A stretch of DNA of 64,000 nucleotides from an uncultured Clostridia bacterium (GTDB taxonomy: Bacteria; Bacillota; Clostridia; TANB77; CAG-508), in contig CAKPDN010000003.1 of assembly GCA_934149005.1 (NCBI GenBank), forward strand, positions 49,544 to 113,543. Reading direction: 5' to 3'. Every line of letters begins with the position of its first letter. Position 1 is the stretch's first letter. The notes beneath the pieces are model-generated. The model made no database searches, was not told the DNA's origin, and saw only the letters and a program-made list of their open reading frames with translations. Shown here in pieces: positions 8,915-50,351 of the stretch. Both the position numbers and the translations under genes were made by a program.

Positions 8915-9130
8915 GGACTTCTTTTGAAAATATTTACAAATGTGGATGTTTATGAATGGACATTATTTGCCATCATAAAAGAGTAGGAAGAAGCGGTTGC
9001 ACCGTTAAAACTATAATGAGGTTAATTGTTTTAGAATAGATAAATAATTAATAAAATTAGGTGGTAACACGGAATAAAATCCATTTCGTCCTATATATGG
9101 GACAAAGTGGATTTTTTATATTTATTTTCA
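8915..9130 (+). promoter_or_regulatory. T-box riboswitch leader (Phe-specific by context) upstream of pheS
   Basis: T-box sequence aaattaggtggtaacacgg at 9053-9072 and a terminator hairpin aaaatccatttcgtcc...gggacaaagtggatttttt. T-box control of pheST is typical in Firmicutes. Confidence 0.6.
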
Positions 9131-9166: not shown

Positions 9167-10216
9167 ATGAAAGAAAAAATTTCAAAAATCAAAGAAACTT
9201 CAGTAGAAGAAATCAAAAAAGCTGAAGACTTAAAACAACTAAATGATATAAGAGTAAAATATTTAGGAAAAAAAGGAGAGTTTACAGCAGTATTAAGAGG
9301 AATGGGGGAACTATCACCAGAGGAGAGACCAGTAATTGGAAGCTTAGTAAATGAAGTAAGAGATGAATTAGAAAAATTAATGCAAGAAAAAGAAGAAAAA
9401 TTTCAAAAAGAAGAATTAAATAAAAAACTAGAGGAAGAAAAAATAGATATAACACTTCCAAGCACAAAAATAAAAAGAGGAAGTTTGCATCCAGTAAATA
9501 GAATAATTGAGGATATAGAAGATTTATTTGTATCTATGGGATATGATGTGCTAACAGGACCAGAACTTGAAAATGATGAATACTGTTTTGAAAGGTTGAA
9601 CCTTCCAAAAGGACATCCAGCAAGAGATATGCAAGACAGTTTCTATATTACTGATGAATATTTATTAAGAACGCAAACATCCGCAGTTCAAGCGAGAACA
9701 ATGATGGCAAATATAGAAAAAACACCAATTAGAATGATAACAGCGGGAAAAACATATAGAAGAGAAGATGATGCAACACACTCACATCAATTTAATCAAA
9801 TAGAGGGATTAGTAATTGACAAAAAAGAAAGAAATGTATCTTTGGCAGATTTAAAAGGGACATTAGAGGTTTTTGTTAGAAAAATAATAGGAGCAAACTT
9901 GGATTTGAGATTTAGACCAAGTTACTTCCCATTCACAGAGCCATCTTATGAAGTTGATGTTACTTGTTTTAAATGTGGAGGAAAGGGATGTAATCTATGT
10001 AAACAAACAGGATGGATAGAAGTTTTAGGAGCAGGAATTGTTCATCCAAATGTTTTAAAAATGAATGGATATGATCCAGAAAAATTTGGTGGATTTGCAT
10101 TTGGAACAGGTATAGACAGATTAGCTATGTTTAGATATGGAATCACAGATATGAGATATTTATATACCAATGATGTTAGATTTTTATCTCAATTTGATAG
10201 AAAAGATGAAGAATAA
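9167..10216 (+). CDS. pheS: Phenylalanine--tRNA ligase alpha subunit
   Basis: 349 aa; class II aaRS motifs ([35 protein letters not shown]). Confidence 0.95.
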
Positions 10217-10222
10217 AGAATA

Positions 10223-10330
10223 GGGATTACGGGGCCACCACACAAAATCCCTCATAAATAAAATATTAGAATAGTTTTAATATATAAATTAAATAAAAAG
10301 AGGGATTTTGTGTGGTGGCCCCGTAATCCC
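10223..10330. repeat. Perfect 31-bp inverted repeat pair with a 46-bp AT spacer, between pheS and pheT (intergenic palindromic element B)
   Basis: gggattacggggccaccacacaaaatccctc at 10223-10253 and its exact reverse complement at 10300-10330. Each arm is itself a hairpin (gagggatt...aatccctc). Confidence 0.8.
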
Positions 10331-10345
10331 TCAAAGGAGGAAAAA

Positions 10346-12718
10346 ATGAATTTAAGTTTAGATTTTGTAAAAGATTATATAGATTTAGATAACGAATTAA
10401 GCGTAAAAGATATAGCGGAAGCAATGACAAAAGCTGGAAACGAATATGATTCAGCAGAAAAATTAGTAAATGCAACAAAACTAGTAATAGGAGAAATAAA
10501 AGAATGTGAAATGCATCCAGATTCTGACCACTTACATCTATGCAAGGTAGATATCGGAACTGAAGTGCTAGATATAGTTTGTGGTGCACCAAATGCTAGA
10601 AAAGGAATTAAAGTAATTGTTGCACAAGTTGGAGCAGAACTTCCAGGAGACTTCAAAATCAAAAAAGGTATGATTAGAGGTCAAGCGTCAAATGGAATGT
10701 TATGTGCTTTATATGAAATAGGAATTGATAAAAAATTCTTATCTGAAGCAGATAAAAACGGAATACATGAATTACCAGCAGATGCACCAGTTGGTGGTGA
10801 CCCAATTAAATATATGGGATTAGATGATGGTATTATTGATTTTGAATTAACTGCAAACAGAGGAGATTTATTAAGTATTTTAGGTATGGCTTATGAATTA
10901 GGAGCAATTTATGATAAAAAAGTAAAACCAGTTGAATATGGATACAAAGAAAGTGGAGATGATGTAAATAAAGAATTTTCAGTTGGTGTAGATACAGAAA
11001 ATTGTAGACTATTCTTGGCTAAAAAAGCTAAAAATGTAACAATAAAAGAAAGCCCGGAATTTATAAAAAACAGACTAATTGCTTGTGGAATTAGACCAAT
11101 AAACAATGTTGTAGACATTAGTAACTATGTAATGCTAGAATTAGGTCAACCATTACACTTCTATGATGCAGATAATTTAGGTAACAAAATAGTTGTTAGA
11201 ATGGCAGAAGATGGAGAAAAATTAACAACACTAGATAACACAGAGAGAACTTTATCAAGTGAAGATATAGTTATAACAGACGGAACAAAAGCTATTGGTT
11301 TAGCAGGTGTTATGGGTGGATTAGATACAGAAGTTGAAGAAACAACTAAAAATGTAATAATTGAATCAGCAATATTTGATTCAGTAAAAGTAAGAAAAAC
11401 ATCAAATAAAATATTAAGAAGTGAAGCAAGTAACAGATTTGAAAAAGGCTTAGACCCTGCAAGAACATATATGGCAATGGAAAGAGCATGTACATTATTA
11501 CAAAAATATGCAAATGCAGAAATTGAAACAGGAATTGTAAAATATGATGTTACAAAAAATGAAGAAAAAGTAATTGAAATATCATATAAAGAAATAAATG
11601 ATGTGTTAGGAACAAACATTTCAAAAGAAGACATTGTTGATGTATTTAGAAAATTAGACTTCAAAACATATGCAAAAGAAAATACTGTAATCGTTACAGT
11701 ACCAACAAGAAGAATAGATATATCAATTAGAGCAGATTTAATAGAAGAAGTCGGAAGAATCTATGGAGTTGACAATATTCAAGGTAAACTACCAGTAGTT
11801 CCAATGAAAATGGGACATTTAGACAAAACAACAAGAAAAATAAGAGCGAAAATGTCAAATATGGGATTAAATGAAACATTATCATATATATTAATAAACG
11901 ACAAAGAAGTTCACAAATTCACAACAGACGAATTTGAAGAAGTCAGACTATTAGACCCAATAACAGAAGAAAGAAATACATTAAGATACAGCATGATACC
12001 ATCTTTATACAAAATTTATGAATATAACAAAGCACGTGAAAACAAAGATGTTTGCCTTTTTGAAATTGGAAAAGGATTCTGGAAAAAAGGTGAAGAATAC
12101 GGAGAAAATAAAAAAATCTGTGTGTTAATGACAGGAAAATATTATGAAGGAATAGGACATAACAAAAATGTTGACTTCTATGACATCAAAGGCGTAACAG
12201 AAGAATTATTAGATTATTTAGGATATGCAGGAAGATATAGTTTTGTATTACCAAAACAAATGCCAGCAGAATTCCATCCAGGTCAAACAGCAGAAATTTC
12301 AGTAAATAATGATATTGTAGGTATTGTTGGAAGAATACATCCATCAGTAGAAAAAGAAGCGGTTTATGTAATGGAAATCAACTTAGATAAATTACTAGCC
12401 AAAAGAGTAGGAAAAATGAAATTCAAAGAAATTTCAAAATTCCCAGTTGTTAAAAAAGATTTAGCATTATTGGTTGATAAAAATATGACATCAAAAGAAG
12501 TTGAAATGCTAATTAAGAAAAAAGCTGGAAAATTATTGTTAGATATAAATGTATTTGATGTTTATGAAGGTAAAAATATTGATTCTAATAAGAGAAGTAT
12601 TGCATATTCTTTGACATTTGGTACACCTGATAGAACTTTAAATGATGAAGAAATTAATACTATTTTGGATAATATTATTAAAGATTTGGAAAATAAAGGT
12701 TTAGAAATAAGAAAATAG
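10346..12718 (+). CDS. pheT: Phenylalanine--tRNA ligase beta subunit
   Basis: About 790 aa with a tRNA-binding N-terminal domain and B3/4 and B5 regions. RBS aaaggaggaaaaa-ATG at 10346. The ORF track's start at 10310 lies inside the repeat. Confidence 0.9.
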   Translation: MNLSLDFVKDYIDLDNELSVKDIAEAMTKAGNEYDSAEKLVNATKLVIGEIKECEMHPDSDHLHLCKVDIGTEVLDIVCGAPNARKGIKVIVAQVGAELPGDFKIKKGMIRGQASNGMLCALYEIGIDKKFLSEADKNGIHELPADAPVGGDPIKYMGLDDGIIDFELTANRGDLLSILGMAYELGAIYDKKVKPVEYGYKESGDDVNKEFSVGVDTENCRLFLAKKAKNVTIKESPEFIKNRLIACGIRPINNVVDISNYVMLELGQPLHFYDADNLGNKIVVRMAEDGEKLTTLDNTERTLSSEDIVITDGTKAIGLAGVMGGLDTEVEETTKNVIIESAIFDSVKVRKTSNKILRSEASNRFEKGLDPARTYMAMERACTLLQKYANAEIETGIVKYDVTKNEEKVIEISYKEINDVLGTNISKEDIVDVFRKLDFKTYAKENTVIVTVPTRRIDISIRADLIEEVGRIYGVDNIQGKLPVVPMKMGHLDKTTRKIRAKMSNMGLNETLSYILINDKEVHKFTTDEFEEVRLLDPITEERNTLRYSMIPSLYKIYEYNKARENKDVCLFEIGKGFWKKGEEYGENKKICVLMTGKYYEGIGHNKNVDFYDIKGVTEELLDYLGYAGRYSFVLPKQMPAEFHPGQTAEISVNNDIVGIVGRIHPSVEKEAVYVMEINLDKLLAKRVGKMKFKEISKFPVVKKDLALLVDKNMTSKEVEMLIKKKAGKLLLDINVFDVYEGKNIDSNKRSIAYSLTFGTPDRTLNDEEINTILDNIIKDLENKGLEIRK

Positions 12719-26028: not shown

Positions 26029-27012
26029 ATGAATACAAGAAGGAAATTAAAGGGCAATAAAGAAAAGAGAAATTTAACAGATATAAAAAATATATTAATA
26101 AGAAAAGAAAATACTGAAAAAAACAAAAGTATAGAAAATGAAAAACAAGTATCAATAAAAAAATCACAAAACAGATTAGATGTACTAAAAAAAATAGAAA
26201 AACTAGAAATGGAAGGAAAATTTGATATTGATGTTGAAGAAGACCCACCAACAATAGTACTAACTCCTGAAAATATAGATTATTTAAGAACAACAATGAC
26301 TAGCAAAATAAAAAGAATATTTGCAAATGAAGTTGGAGAAAGATTTTTAGACAATTTATTAAAAAATAATAAATTAATTATAAAACAAATAAATGGACTT
26401 GAAAATTTAACCAAAATACAAACAGGAGCAATTATAACATGTAATCATTTTAATCCATTTGATTGTTTTACAATAGAAAAAACATTTAGATTATCTGGGC
26501 AAGCAAAAACAAAAAAATTACATAAAGTAATAAGAGAAGGTAATTATACTAATTTTCCAGGACTTTATGGATTTTTATTTAGAAACTGTGACACTTTACC
26601 ATTAAGTTCAAATAAAAGAACGATGGTAGAATTTATGAAAGCGGTAGACACACTGTTACAAAAAGGTGATTTTATATTAATATACCCAGAACAAAGTATG
26701 TGGTGGAATTATAGAAAACCAAAGCCACTAAAACATGGAGCATTTAAAATTGCAACTAGAAACAATGTTCCAATTATACCAATATTTATAACAATGAATG
26801 ATAGTAATATAATAGGAGAGGATGGATTCCCTATTCAAGAATATACTGTAAATATAGCAGAACCAATTTATCAAGATAAAAATTTAACACAAAGAGAAAA
26901 TACAGAACAAATGTTAAATAAAAATTTTGAAATTTGGAAAAATATATATGAAGAATTTTACGGAATATCACTTGAATATACAACTAAAAAGGAAACTATG
27001 ATAAATGAATAA
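26029..27012 (+). CDS. Lysophospholipid (PlsC-like) acyltransferase
   Basis: HX4D motif (CNHFNPFD) and a YPEQS block. Confidence 0.6.
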   Translation: MNTRRKLKGNKEKRNLTDIKNILIRKENTEKNKSIENEKQVSIKKSQNRLDVLKKIEKLEMEGKFDIDVEEDPPTIVLTPENIDYLRTTMTSKIKRIFANEVGERFLDNLLKNNKLIIKQINGLENLTKIQTGAIITCNHFNPFDCFTIEKTFRLSGQAKTKKLHKVIREGNYTNFPGLYGFLFRNCDTLPLSSNKRTMVEFMKAVDTLLQKGDFILIYPEQSMWWNYRKPKPLKHGAFKIATRNNVPIIPIFITMNDSNIIGEDGFPIQEYTVNIAEPIYQDKNLTQRENTEQMLNKNFEIWKNIYEEFYGISLEYTTKKETMINE

Positions 27013-27784
27013 TAAAAAGACAATTTATTATGAAGATGAATTAAATGATGAATTTTCAACAGTAAAAATTATACCAAGAAAAATAGATGAGAATTATAAA
27101 TATATACACAAAAACGTAATATGGAATGCATGTGCATTCATTTTACAAAATGTATTAAGTCTTCCAATAAAATATTTATATGCTAAAATAAAATTCAAAA
27201 ATAAAATTATAGGAAAAGAAAAATTAAAGAAATATAAAAAACAAGGATATTTTATATATGGAAATCATACACAAGCATTTGCAGATACATTTTTAATAAG
27301 CAATAGTGTATTCCCAAAAATAAATTATTTAATAGTGAATCCAGAAAATGTATCTATGAAATTTTTAGGAAATGTTGTACAAATGTTAGGAGCAATACCA
27401 ATACCAAGCAATAAAGAAGCAATGAAAAATTTTTTAGAAACAATAGAAAAAAGAATAAAAAAAGGATATTCAATAACAATATTTCCAGAAGCACACATAT
27501 GGCCATATTATACAAAAATAAGACCATTTAAATCTGTATCATTTAAGTATCCTGTGAAATTAGGAACACCAACGTTCTGCATGACCAATACATATCAAAG
27601 TTATGGGAAAAATGGGGCTAAAGTAAAAATAGTATCATATATAGATGGTCCTTTTTTTCCAGATGAAAATTTGAATATTAAAGAGCAACAAGACAATTTG
27701 AGAAATAAAGTTTATAATACAATGGTAGAAAGATGTAAAAATAGTAATATTGAAGTAATTAAATACGAGAAAAAAATAGGATAA
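27005..27784 (+). CDS. Lysophospholipid (PlsC-like) acyltransferase
   Basis: GNHTQAFAD (HX4D) and IFPEAH motifs. Overlaps the upstream gene by 8 nt. Confidence 0.6.
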   Translation: MNNKKTIYYEDELNDEFSTVKIIPRKIDENYKYIHKNVIWNACAFILQNVLSLPIKYLYAKIKFKNKIIGKEKLKKYKKQGYFIYGNHTQAFADTFLISNSVFPKINYLIVNPENVSMKFLGNVVQMLGAIPIPSNKEAMKNFLETIEKRIKKGYSITIFPEAHIWPYYTKIRPFKSVSFKYPVKLGTPTFCMTNTYQSYGKNGAKVKIVSYIDGPFFPDENLNIKEQQDNLRNKVYNTMVERCKNSNIEVIKYEKKIG

Positions 27785-27794
27785 GGGGACTAAG

Positions 27795-27899
27795 GGGGAT
27801 TAAGGGGCCACCACATAAAATCCCTCTTTTTTTTTCAAATTTTATTTTTGAATTTTAAAATAAGAAAGAGGGATTTTATGTGGTGGCCCCTTAATCCCC
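27795..27899. repeat. Near-perfect 32-bp inverted repeat pair with an AT spacer; same family as element B (intergenic palindromic element C)
   Basis: ggggattaaggggccaccacataaaatccctc at 27795-27826 and its reverse complement at 27868-27899. About 85% identical to the arms at 10223/10300. The left side carries an extra partial copy (ggggactaag). Confidence 0.8.
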
Positions 27900-27904
27900 T
27901 TATT

Positions 27905-28540
27905 TTATTTTTTATTTTTATAATATTTACAGTACTCTTTAACCGCACAACTAGTACATTTAGGCTTTCTTGCAATACAAGTATTTCTACCATGCCAAAC
28001 AAATAAATGATTAATATCTTTTAGATATTCTTTGGGAAAAATTTTAATTAAATCTTGTTCAATTTTAGAGGGGGTAGATTCTTTAGAAAGACCAATTAAA
28101 TTAGAAATTCTTTTTGCATGTGTATCAACAGCAATACCTTGAGGTTTATTAAAAACTTCTAACATAACTACATTAGCAGATTTTCTGCCAATACCTGCTA
28201 AACTTTGTAAATCTTCCATATTATCAGGGACTATACCACCAAAATTCTCAAGAACTTGTTTTGCACATAATTTAATATTTTTAGCTTTATTTTTATAAAA
28301 ACCACATGGATGAATAAGAGCTTCTAATTCTTTAATATCAATATTAGCGAAATCCTGAATAGTTTTACATCTTTCAAAAAGAGCAGGAGTAGTTTTATTA
28401 ACTCTTTCATCAGTACATTGTGCAGAAAGCATTACAGAAACAACCATTTGAAATGGAGTTTTAAAATCCAAACTGCAAGTTGCATCAGGATAAGTCTTTT
28501 TTAAAATTTCAACAAAATTTATAATATCATTTTTTTTCAT
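27905..28540 (-). CDS. nth: Endonuclease III
   Basis: HhH-GPD fold and the C-terminal 4Fe-4S cluster CIARKPKCTSCAVKEYC. Confidence 0.9.
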   Translation of the reverse strand: MKKNDIINFVEILKKTYPDATCSLDFKTPFQMVVSVMLSAQCTDERVNKTTPALFERCKTIQDFANIDIKELEALIHPCGFYKNKAKNIKLCAKQVLENFGGIVPDNMEDLQSLAGIGRKSANVVMLEVFNKPQGIAVDTHAKRISNLIGLSKESTPSKIEQDLIKIFPKEYLKDINHLFVWHGRNTCIARKPKCTSCAVKEYCKYYKNKK

Positions 28541-50136: not shown

Positions 50137-50147
50137 TAAGGAGAAGA

Positions 50148-50267
50148 GGGAAAAGAGGGAAAAGGGGGACGTGACTTAAAATCCCTGCTGTGTGTGACGG
50201 ATTTTCTTAAGAGAAACAATTACACAGCAGGGATTTTAAGTCACGTCCCCCTTTTCCCTCTTTTCCC
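50148..50267. repeat. Perfect 46-bp inverted repeat pair with a 28-bp spacer, between recO and hpf (intergenic palindromic element D)
   Basis: gggaaaagagggaaaagggggacgtgacttaaaatccctgctgtgt at 50148-50193 and its exact reverse complement at 50222-50267. Confidence 0.8.
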
Positions 50268-50351
50268 TTTTTTTAAAAAAACACTTGCAAAAAATAATAA
50301 TAAAATATATAATAAAAACAGGCAAAGGTAAAAAAGAAGGGAGCGATTTTT

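What the first reader, a model, noticed from the sequence alone, without database searches (positions are those of the whole stretch)
10223..10330. Perfect 31-bp inverted-repeat element inserted between pheS and pheT, with a second family member at 27795-27899
pheS and pheT are normally separated by a few nucleotides. Here 130 bp intervene, consisting of two exact reverse-complement arms around a 46-bp AT spacer; each arm is itself a hairpin. An 85%-identical copy sits after the acyltransferase gene at 27795-27899. This is the signature of a MITE/REP-like mobile palindromic element family rather than an ordinary terminator. A stem this long inside an essential operon would be an RNase III substrate and could set the pheS:pheT ratio.
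Basis: seen in the sequence. Interest (0 to 1): 0.6.

Follow-up and report, generated by a model that had tools for sequence, protein, structure and literature searches.

The report
REP-like hairpin repeat between pheS and pheT
The perfect 32-bp inverted repeat between pheS and pheT is real and is one copy of a previously undescribed family of small palindromic intergenic repeats, built like the REP/REPIN elements of proteobacteria, found only in a few low-GC uncultured gut Clostridia; it is a new family of a known kind of element, and how it spreads and what it does to pheS/pheT expression are still inferred.

Summary
Two perfect 32-nt arms (10222-10253, 10300-10331) flank a 46-nt AT spacer between PheS and PheT, and a second copy lies at 27796-27898.

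The basic unit is a single arm: a hairpin with stem GGGATT/AATCCC, an almost invariant loop core GGGGCCACCACA, and a covarying base pair below the stem. I collected 77 non-redundant units (51 paired, 26 solo), all from low-GC gut Clostridia contigs. All 30 pairs have the same head-in orientation.

The evidence supports a dispersed repeat family that is gained and lost, with a REPIN-like architecture:
- The pheS-pheT site is filled in three related genomes and lacks the element in six others, one of which has overlapping stop and start codons (TAATG).
- Whole elements, spacer included, recur at different sites in one genome.
- Arms are 95% conserved where 4-fold sites are about 75% identical.
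- No target-site duplication is visible.

No Y1/RAYT transposase was found in the DNA sampled, so REPIN membership is unproven.

Elements sit a median of 5 nt after stop codons. They carry U-tracts only at convergent gene ends. Copy 2 therefore looks like a bidirectional terminator, and copy 1 looks like a read-through hairpin in a T-box-controlled operon. The RNase III idea remains untested.

Verdict: a new member of a known kind, of moderate interest.

The parts
8807..9096 (+). T-box leader upstream of pheS, the operon's ordinary regulator
   Evidence: Rfam RF00230 matched over the full length of the model at 68.9 bits (below the gathering score of 93), E = 6e-15.
9167..10216 (+). pheS (PheRS alpha chain), stop codon TAA at 10214-10216
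   Evidence: Pfam tRNA-synt_2d 2e-96 and Phe_tRNA-synt_N.
10222..10253 (+). Left arm, which is unit 1. The hairpin has stem GGGATT (10223-10228) / AATCCC (10246-10251) and loop ACGGGGCCACCACACAA.
   Evidence: stem covariation.
10254..10299 (.). 46-nt AT-rich spacer. It is not conserved among family members.
10300..10331 (-). Right arm, which is unit 2, the exact reverse complement of unit 1
10336..10340 (+). Shine-Dalgarno GGAGG of pheT. It starts 5 nt after the long stem ends and lies 5 nt before the ATG.
   Evidence: Read from the sequence.
10346..12718 (+). pheT (PheRS beta chain, 790 aa)
   Evidence: Pfam B3_4, tRNA_synthFbeta, FDX-ACB, B5 and tRNA_bind. The length matches the 790-aa PheT of relatives.
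27796..27826 (+). Copy 2, left unit, followed by a run of nine T
27827..27867 (.). Copy 2 spacer, 41 nt and AT-rich
27868..27898 (-). Copy 2, right unit. On the minus strand it is followed by TCTTTCTTAT. The whole hairpin is followed on the plus strand by CTTATTTTATTTTTT.
   Evidence: It lies between the convergent genes 27005-27784 (+, acyltransferase) and 27905-28540 (-, HhH-GPD).

Best explanation
**What it is.** The sequence at 10222-10331 is one copy of a dispersed, non-coding palindromic repeat family. The family is specific to a small clade of low-GC gut Clostridia and is organised like REP/REPIN elements.

**The unit.** The unit is a hairpin of about 33-40 nt with these parts:
- an invariant upper stem, GGGATT/AATCCC;
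- a 17-nt loop whose core GGGGCCACCACA is almost invariant;
- one or two further base pairs below the stem that only need to pair;
- usually an A-run on the 5' side and a T-run on the 3' side.

Units occur singly or as inverted doublets. Doublets are always head-in and are separated by a free-evolving AT spacer, most often 34-54 nt long.

**What is shown.**
- The family is multi-copy, roughly one element per 30-40 kb.
- It is gained and lost among close relatives.
- Whole doublets, spacer included, recur at different sites.
- Arms stay about 95% identical while neutral sites have diverged by 20-25%.
- No target-site duplication is visible.
- Elements sit between a stop codon (median 5 nt away) and the next ribosome-binding site or a convergent stop. 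None of the 34 sites with assigned context lies between divergent genes.

**What is inferred.**
- The hairpin with its invariant loop is recognised as single-stranded DNA by a trans-acting enzyme that copies or maintains it. A RAYT-like HUH Y1 enzyme is the obvious model.
- Frequent conversion between copies helps keep them uniform.
- At pheS-pheT the element entered a junction that is overlapping (TAATG) or only 28 nt long in the two relatives with the simplest junctions. It is co-transcribed behind the T-box leader and folds into a 32-bp RNA stem (-66.6 kcal/mol) with no U-tract. It therefore does not terminate transcription. It breaks translational coupling and leaves pheT dependent on its own GGAGG, which starts 5 nt after the stem.
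- The stem is a likely RNase III or stability determinant.
- Copy 2, which has U-tracts on both strands, serves as a bidirectional terminator.
For: **Observation.**

**Family size and host range**
- Exact core matches occur in only 5 low-GC Clostridia MAG species among 185,579 GTDB species genomes.
- About 45 human-gut metagenome contigs carry it. There are none in viral contigs, phages or plasmids.
- 77 non-redundant units were collected, and all 30 pairs have the +/- orientation.

**The unit hairpin is real**
- The pair below the stem switches between A-U (37 sequences) and C-G (17), with 10 unpaired.
- The covariation score is 0.151 against 0.075 in shuffles, reached by 0 of 500 shuffles.

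**Gain and loss**
- At pheS-pheT the site is filled in the window, L004 and L019. It is overlapping in L029. L032 has a 28-nt spacer without the element. L034, L093 and L096 carry other sequences. L091 has a possible remnant.
- A pair and a solo unit occupy the same site in L061 versus L005 and in L023 versus L077. L083 is filled where L029 is empty, with no target-site duplication.

**Copied as a unit.** Spacers are shared between paralogous sites: L004 with L007, L054 with L061, L069 and L056, and L023 with L024 and L037.

**Constraint.** 59 of 62 arm positions are identical between the window and L004, against 0.75-0.77 identity at 4-fold sites.

**Context.** The median distance to a stop codon is 5 nt, and no site lies between divergent genes. 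There are 6.6-8 T per 10 nt after the hairpin at convergent sites against 3.5-4.7 inside operons, and window copy 1 has none.

**Other support**
- Folding energies are, and the T-box leader.
- The REPIN definition (inverted REP doublets, variable spacers, singlets, several groups per genome) is taken from PMC3337134.
Against: - No Y1/RAYT gene was found in about 600 kb of loci centred on units. The search used phmmer with an IS200 TnpA and an HUH-Y regular expression. The only Y1 gene seen is an ordinary IS200 with unrelated hairpins, in a relative that lacks the family. Whole genomes could not be scanned, and a single IS200 query may miss divergent RAYTs.
- Arms within a doublet are hardly more alike (94.1%) than arms of different elements (92.4%). 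The long stem itself is therefore not clearly under selection.
- A hybrid doublet exists at L018 3161-3230, whereas REPINs of P. fluorescens SBW25 are never hybrids.
- Most sites are shared by the element-bearing species, so current transposition activity is not shown.
- No transcript or processing data were available.
Confidence: 0.7

Rival explanations
1. It is a host-selected cis-acting RNA or DNA module and is not mobile. In this reading it is a family of 3'-end hairpins, such as terminators or binding sites for a host RNA- or DNA-binding protein. The invariant loop would be the recognition site, and the family would have multiplied by duplication and gene conversion.
For: - Arms are conserved far above the neutral level.
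- The loop is invariant while the lower stem only has to pair.
- Elements lie very close to stop codons and none of the 34 assigned sites is divergent.
- U-tracts occur exactly where transcription units end.
- The same stem carries a different loop at one orthologous site, L048 versus L058, which points to conversion between copies.
Against: - Solo units occur in both orientations relative to transcription: 10 sense and 3 antisense.
- Copies inside operons lack U-tracts.
- The family is confined to a few species and was not found in 118 kb from six close relatives.
- Sites are gained or lost.
- Whole doublets, including their non-conserved spacers, recur at unrelated genes.
- This reading overlaps with the best explanation, because REP elements are also co-opted by the host.
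Confidence: 0.17
2. It is a classical TIR-type MITE. The 31-nt arms would be the terminal inverted repeats of a deleted DDE-transposase insertion sequence, mobilised in trans.
For: - The element is about 100 bp long with perfect terminal inverted repeats and an AT-rich centre.
- Whole elements recur at different sites.
Against: - No target-site duplication is seen at any of 26 non-redundant full pairs or in the filled-versus-empty comparison.
- Single arms occur as intact, conserved units: 26 of the 77 units are solo.
- Single-unit insertions or deletions occur (L023 versus L077).
- Spacer length ranges from 8 to 200 nt.
- No full-length parent with these ends and no transposase lies next to any sampled copy.
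Confidence: 0.08
3. It is an invertible switch (inverton). The arms would be recombination sites, and flipping the spacer would change expression of the neighbouring genes.
For: - The spacer is inverted between orthologous copies. The L003 spacer matches the reverse complement of the L012 spacer at 41 of 42 positions, with the same right flank.
- The central segment of the spacer is inverted between L054 and L061.
Against: - Spacers of 8-54 nt are too short for invertase synapsis (general knowledge).
- The spacers share no promoter.
- No recombinase gene is linked to the elements.
- Inversion between long inverted repeats is an expected by-product of hairpin or cruciform recombination.
Confidence: 0.03
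4. It is a dedicated regulator of the pheST operon, such as an attenuator or a device that sets the subunit ratio, and evolved for that operon.
For: - It lies between two subunit genes that must be made in equal amounts.
- It forms a very stable stem next to the pheT ribosome-binding site.
Against: - The same element sits next to many unrelated housekeeping genes.
- Close relatives, including one with a PheT 94.9% identical, do without it.
- The operon already has its T-box leader.
Confidence: 0.02

Closest known systems
REP / REPIN elements (REP doublets forming hairpins) with their RAYT transposases, in Pseudomonas, E. coli and other proteobacteria
   Same: - The unit is a short palindrome.
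- Units occur as inverted doublets with a fixed relative orientation, plus singlets.
- Spacers vary in length and sequence.
- Several repeat groups coexist in one genome.
- Copies are extragenic, between genes and at 3' ends, with no target-site duplication.
- Repeats are conserved over long vertical inheritance. (REPIN features from PMC3337134; matching observations.)
   Different: - The host is a low-GC Clostridia lineage.
- The unit has a 17-nt loop with an invariant 12-nt core and A/T-run flanks, rather than an imperfect GC-rich palindrome.
- Copy number is in the tens, not hundreds.
- A hybrid doublet exists.
- No RAYT was found in the sampled DNA.
Correia / NEMIS elements of Neisseria
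   Same: - They are about 100-150 bp with long terminal inverted repeats.
- They are co-transcribed with neighbouring genes and form long RNA hairpins, which in Neisseria are cut by RNase III and alter mRNA levels (from my own knowledge of De Gregorio et al.; not re-read here).
- They can supply stop codons or terminators.
   Different: - Correia elements have a TA target-site duplication, an IHF site and no free-standing half-units.
- Here there is no duplication, and single units are intact.
Small repeats of Firmicutes: pneumococcal BOX, RUP and SPRITE; Enterococcus EFAR; Bacillus cereus bcr1-18
   Same: They are lineage-restricted, non-coding, hairpin-forming intergenic repeats in Gram-positive genomes, often close to stop codons (from my own knowledge).
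   Different: - There is no sequence similarity. Rfam gives no family hit, and the sequence is absent from the searched literature.
- RUP and bcr1 are TIR-MITEs with target duplications, and BOX is modular (A-B-C). None has the hairpin-unit-plus-doublet organisation seen here.
Uptake-sequence pairs (Neisseria DUS, Pasteurellaceae USS) that double as terminators
   Same: A conserved motif of about 12 nt occurs in inverted pairs at 3' gene ends, with U-tracts.
   Different: - Uptake sequences form the stem itself and occur about once per kb.
- Here the motif lies in the loop, the density is about one per 30-40 kb, and there is no evidence of competence.

Membership tests
REP/REPIN-RAYT system | The unit is a short (imperfect) palindrome able to form a hairpin. 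| tested here: met
   The stem GGGATT/AATCCC plus a covarying seventh pair, A-U 37 versus C-G 17; 0 of 500 shuffles reach the observed score.
REP/REPIN-RAYT system | Two units in inverted orientation, separated by a variable spacer, form a long hairpin (doublet). Singlets also occur. | tested here: met
   30 of 30 pairs are head-in, spacers range from 8 to 200 nt with a mode of about 42, and 26 of 77 units are solo. A pair and a solo occupy the same site in different genomes.
REP/REPIN-RAYT system | Many copies per genome, confined to extragenic space. | tested here: inconclusive
   All copies are intergenic. One MAG gave at least 8 loci and one metagenome assembly at least 20. Density is about one per 30-40 kb, which implies tens of copies. 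Whole genomes could not be counted.
REP/REPIN-RAYT system | A cognate single-copy RAYT (Y1 HUH transposase, PF01797), usually flanked by the repeats. | tested here: inconclusive
   None was found in about 600 kb around units, using phmmer with an IS200 TnpA and an HUH-Y motif search. The only gene flanked by two units is an acyl-ACP thioesterase. Complete genomes were not available, and the query may miss divergent RAYTs.
REP/REPIN-RAYT system | Doublets are replicated or excised as a unit. | tested here: inconclusive
   Paralogous doublets share spacers, which is indirect support. No excision or population data were available.
TIR-type MITE | Target-site duplication flanking the terminal inverted repeats. 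| tested here: not met
   No direct repeats flank any of 26 non-redundant full pairs. L083 (filled) versus L029 (empty) shows an insertion with no duplication.
TIR-type MITE | A parent insertion sequence with the same ends and a transposase. | tested here: inconclusive
   None was seen in the sampled loci. Whole genomes were not searched.
Intrinsic (Rho-independent) terminator | A GC-rich hairpin followed immediately by a U-tract on the transcribed strand. | tested here: not met
   This applies to the pheS-pheT copy. Its tails are TCATAAATAA after unit 1 and TCAAAGGAGG after the whole stem, and the terminator scan found nothing there. The feature is met by copy 2 at 27796-27898 on both strands.
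Any Rfam RNA family | A score at or above the family's gathering threshold. | tested here: not met
   Only generic long-hairpin (miRNA precursor or sRNA) models matched, all below threshold.

The most novel reading that the evidence does not exclude
This could be a REPIN-like replicator system native to Firmicutes that does not depend on a classical RAYT. A hairpin with an invariant 12-nt loop (GGGGCCACCACA) would be recognised by an as-yet-unidentified host or domesticated enzyme. Loop 'cassettes' would be exchanged between sub-families that share one stem; the same site carries different loops in L048 and L058. The host would use the units as movable terminator or mRNA-processing modules placed directly after stop codons.
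Probability: 0.15. Interest if true: 0.7.

Novelty: new member of a known kind. Interest (0 to 1): 0.42.

Why it matters
REP/REPIN-type repeats have been studied almost entirely in proteobacteria. A search for papers containing the words REPIN, RAYT and Firmicutes together returned nothing.

This family is sequence-defined and lies in uncultured, genome-compact gut Clostridia. Its arms are held far above neutral conservation and its sites are gained and lost. It would extend the REP/REPIN phenomenon to another phylum and offers a clean case for asking what maintains such repeats.

The family also has practical uses:
- It marks a specific clade in gut metagenomes.
- It is a likely source of assembly breaks and rearrangements.
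- The pheS-pheT copy is a natural experiment on breaking translational coupling in an essential two-subunit enzyme operon.

Tried and rejected
- **Known RNA family.** Rfam gave nothing at gathering thresholds, and only generic hairpin models at permissive thresholds.
- **Origin in phages or plasmids.** There were no hits in IMG/VR, INPHARED or PLSDB.
- **Published sequence.** A full-text search for the loop and arm strings found only unrelated primers.
- **RAYT next to the units.**
  - The Y1_Tnp gene in L032 (7183-7689) is an ordinary IS200 with its own unrelated hairpins, in a genome without the family.
  - The phmmer and motif scans of all loci were negative.
  - The gene bracketed by two units in L018/L052 is an acyl-ACP thioesterase.
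- **HUH-like hit in L024 (1255-2502).** It is a Mob_Pre relaxase with a typical GTGTGT-loop oriT hairpin upstream. Apart from the short GTGTG string, nothing links it to the units.
- **Loop pairing with a local RNA.** There is no meaningful complementarity to the tmRNA, the tRNA-Trp or anything else in the window.
- **Selection on the long stem.** Arm-to-arm identity within an element barely exceeds identity between elements, so this argument was dropped.
- **Source genome.** The window's PheS is not in the protein collection, so the source genome could not be identified or extended.
- **Strand bias of solo units.** The split of 10 sense to 3 antisense is not significant.

Full report
**1. The observation**

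The sequence is as described.
- Arms 10222-10253 and 10300-10331 are 32 nt, perfectly complementary, and separated by 46 AT-rich bases.
- The degenerate arm pattern occurs four times in the window, forming two inverted pairs, against 0.00 expected in 100 shuffles.
- Pfam confirms the flanking genes as PheS (9167-10216) and PheT. PheT really starts at ATG 10346, 5 nt after GGAGG at 10336-10340.
- The intergenic gap is therefore 129 nt.
- The second copy (27796-27826 / 27868-27898) lies between a convergent acyltransferase gene and an HhH-GPD glycosylase gene.
- Its arms differ from copy 1 at 2 of 31 positions, but the spacers are unrelated. Whole-element identity is 77% rather than 85%.
- As RNA the pheS-pheT element folds into one long hairpin of -66.6 kcal/mol, z = -12.2.
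- A single consensus arm with its flanks folds at about -15 kcal/mol.

**2. The family**

A scan of one genome per GTDB species with the 22-specified-base core found it in only five species. All are low-GC (25-30%) uncultured gut Clostridia MAGs, usually with several loci each. The hits in high-GC genomes are isolated chance or coding matches.

A metagenome scan added about 45 low-GC human-gut contigs, at least 20 of them from a single assembly. Nothing was found in viral contigs, phages or plasmids. Rfam and the literature search were also negative.

After removing orthologous duplicates there are 77 units, 51 in pairs and 26 solo.

Their alignment shows that the basic unit is the single arm.
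- The upper stem GGGATT/AATCCC is essentially invariant.
- The 17-nt loop has an almost invariant core, GGGGCCACCACA.
- The next pair down covaries: A-U in 37 sequences, C-G in 17, unpaired in 10. The covariation score is 0.151 against 0.075 in shuffles, reached by 0 of 500.
- Units usually have an A-run on the 5' side and a T-run on the 3' side.

All 30 pairs have the same head-in orientation, 5'-GGGGCCACCACA ... TGTGGTGGCCCC-3'. Spacers range from 8 to 200 nt and cluster at 34-54 nt.

Sub-families share the same stem but have other loops (GGGGACGGGTCTTC and GGGGCCAGGACT). They show the same pair-and-solo organisation. One hybrid pair exists, at L018 3161-3230.

**3. Evidence for gain, loss and copying**

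The pheS-pheT junction was recovered from nine related genomes.

| Genome | PheS identity to window | State of the junction |
|---|---|---|
| window | - | filled, 129-nt gap |
| L004 | 90.6% aa; locus 84.6% nt | filled |
| L019 | pheS not on the contig; PheT 95.8% aa; locus 92.6% nt | filled |
| L029-31 | 84% | stop and start overlap (TAATG) |
| L032/33 | 92% | 28-nt spacer, no element |
| L034/35/95 | 88% | 56 nt holding a different hairpin |
| L096 | 87% | 78 nt of unrelated sequence |
| L093/94 | 90% | 139 nt holding another palindrome |
| L091/92 | 91% | 86-nt AT spacer |

The L091/92 spacer starts with AAGAATAGCGATT, where the window has AAGAATAGGGATT. It may therefore be a remnant of the element. 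L091's PheT is as close to the window's (94.9%) as that of the filled L019 (95.8%). The element has therefore been gained or lost within about 20% synonymous divergence.

Other sites show related changes:
- a full pair in one genome and a solo unit in another (L061 versus L005, L023 versus L077);
- the same stem with a different loop (L048 versus L058, flanks about 96% identical);
- a filled site against an empty site with no target-site duplication (L083 versus L029).

Paralogous elements at different genes share their spacers: L004 with L007 in the same MAG, L054 with L061, L069 and L056, and L023 with L024 and L037. Whole doublets have therefore been copied.

Spacers, or their centres, are sometimes inverted between copies (L003 versus L012, 41 of 42 positions; L054 versus L061).

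Between the window and L004, 59 of 62 arm positions are identical, while 4-fold degenerate sites in pheS and pheT are 75-77% identical. The arms are thus either constrained or homogenised.

No unit was found in about 118 kb from the six relatives that lack the element at pheS-pheT. In unit-bearing DNA the density is roughly one element per 30-40 kb.

**4. Context and likely function**

Elements lie almost against stop codons.
- The median distance is 5 nt.
- In three cases the TAA inside GGGATTAAGG is itself the stop codon.
- The element ends 13-31 nt before the next start codon in most operon sites.
- Of the sites with assigned context, 26 are co-directional, 8 convergent and none divergent.

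In these compact genomes this position may simply be the only place where an insertion is tolerated.

After the hairpin there are 6.6-8 T per 10 nt at convergent sites but only 3.5-4.7 inside operons. Copy 2 has T-runs on both strands and looks like a bidirectional terminator. Copy 1 has none (TCATAAATAA after unit 1, TCAAAGGAGG after the whole stem), and the terminator scan finds nothing there.

A T-box leader lies upstream of pheS (8807-9096, E = 6e-15, below Rfam's gathering score).

The most likely picture for copy 1 follows.
- The element is transcribed as part of the T-box-controlled pheST mRNA.
- It forms a 32-bp stem 6 nt after the pheS stop, ending 5 nt before the pheT Shine-Dalgarno sequence.
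- It replaces a tight junction, overlapping in L029 and 28 nt long in L032, with independent initiation at pheT's own ribosome-binding site.
- It is a plausible RNase III or mRNA-stability determinant.

Everything beyond the existence of the stem is inference.

**5. Mechanism of spread**

The architecture matches the REPIN description: inverted REP doublets with fixed orientation, variable spacers, singlets, several groups per genome, and long vertical persistence (PMC3337134). Group 1 RAYTs are reported in Clostridia (PMC5581495).

A hairpin whose upper stem and loop are invariant, while the lower stem only has to pair, is what a structure-plus-sequence-specific ssDNA enzyme would select. However, no Y1/RAYT gene lies in the roughly 600 kb sampled around units. 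The genes flanking units are housekeeping genes. Arms within a pair are barely more alike than arms of different elements.

Membership of the REPIN-RAYT class is therefore unproven. What the evidence supports is that the family is built like a REPIN and was gained, lost and copied like one.

A TIR-MITE is disfavoured: there is no target duplication, solo units are intact, and single-unit insertions or deletions occur. An inverton and a phe-specific regulator are both unlikely.

**6. Verdict**

This is a real, well-supported new family of REP/REPIN-like palindromic repeats in a narrow clade of gut Clostridia. It is a new member of a known kind. Interest is moderate. The open points are the enzyme or process that maintains it, the meaning of the invariant loop, and its effect on pheS/pheT expression.

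Noticed in passing
window 7863-8015 (units 7875-7906 and 7972-8003): A second, unrelated hairpin-repeat family with the same architecture. The unit is TGAGACA-[..GGGACGGTCC..]-TGTCTCA, present here as an inverted pair. The TGA that begins the left unit is the stop codon of ORF 6234-7877. Further copies occur in L005, L014, L048, L056 (three copies) and L067.
   Followed up: partly
window 50144-50271: A third long inverted repeat, with 50-nt arms 98% complementary around a 28-nt spacer, lies directly after a TAATAA stop. Its arms contain GGGGGACGTGAC..AAAATCCCT, which faintly recalls the main family. No other copy was found in the fetched loci.
   Followed up: partly
window 8807-9096: A T-box leader lies upstream of pheS. 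It matches the full length of the Rfam model at 68.9 bits (E = 6e-15), which is below the family's gathering score of 93, so the default Rfam scan missed it.
   Followed up: yes
window 1670-2479 (-); L024 1255-2502 (-): A truncated Mob_Pre (MOBV) relaxase gene lies near the start of the window. The full-length homologue in L024 has a typical GTGTGT-loop oriT hairpin upstream (L024 about 2565-2595). This is probably an integrated mobilisable element or its remnant.
   Followed up: partly
pheS-pheT junctions of L034/L035/L095 (11051-11106), L093 (11057-11195) and L096 (11051-11128): In relatives the same junction holds other small GC-rich hairpins or palindromes. Examples are TTCCCCGAAAAACTCCGTCCCCAAATGGGAA in L034 and a 139-nt palindromic insert in L093. 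This junction therefore looks like a recurrent landing site for different small elements.
   Followed up: partly
L041 4418 versus L042 1454; L075 1246 versus L024 7827 and L018 1463: Some contigs share only one flank of a unit with another contig. Either recombination between dispersed units has rearranged the genome, or low-coverage metagenome assemblies were mis-joined at the 31-nt repeat.
   Followed up: no
L034/L035/L095 18084-19522: A reverse transcriptase gene (RVT_1) lies next to a bAvd-like gene, which suggests a diversity-generating retroelement. It sits about 7 kb downstream of pheT in one relative.
   Followed up: no
L032 7183-7689: An IS200-type Y1 transposase gene with its own flanking hairpins (AAAACCCCCTGTTTTACAGGGGGTT and AAACCACCCGTTTTACGGGTGGTT) occurs in a relative that lacks the repeat family.
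   Followed up: yes
protein P0001: A 473-aa PheS homologue, 85% identical over 88% of the query, is about 120 aa longer than all the others. It could be a read-through or fusion across the pheS-pheT junction, or a gene-calling artefact.
   Followed up: no
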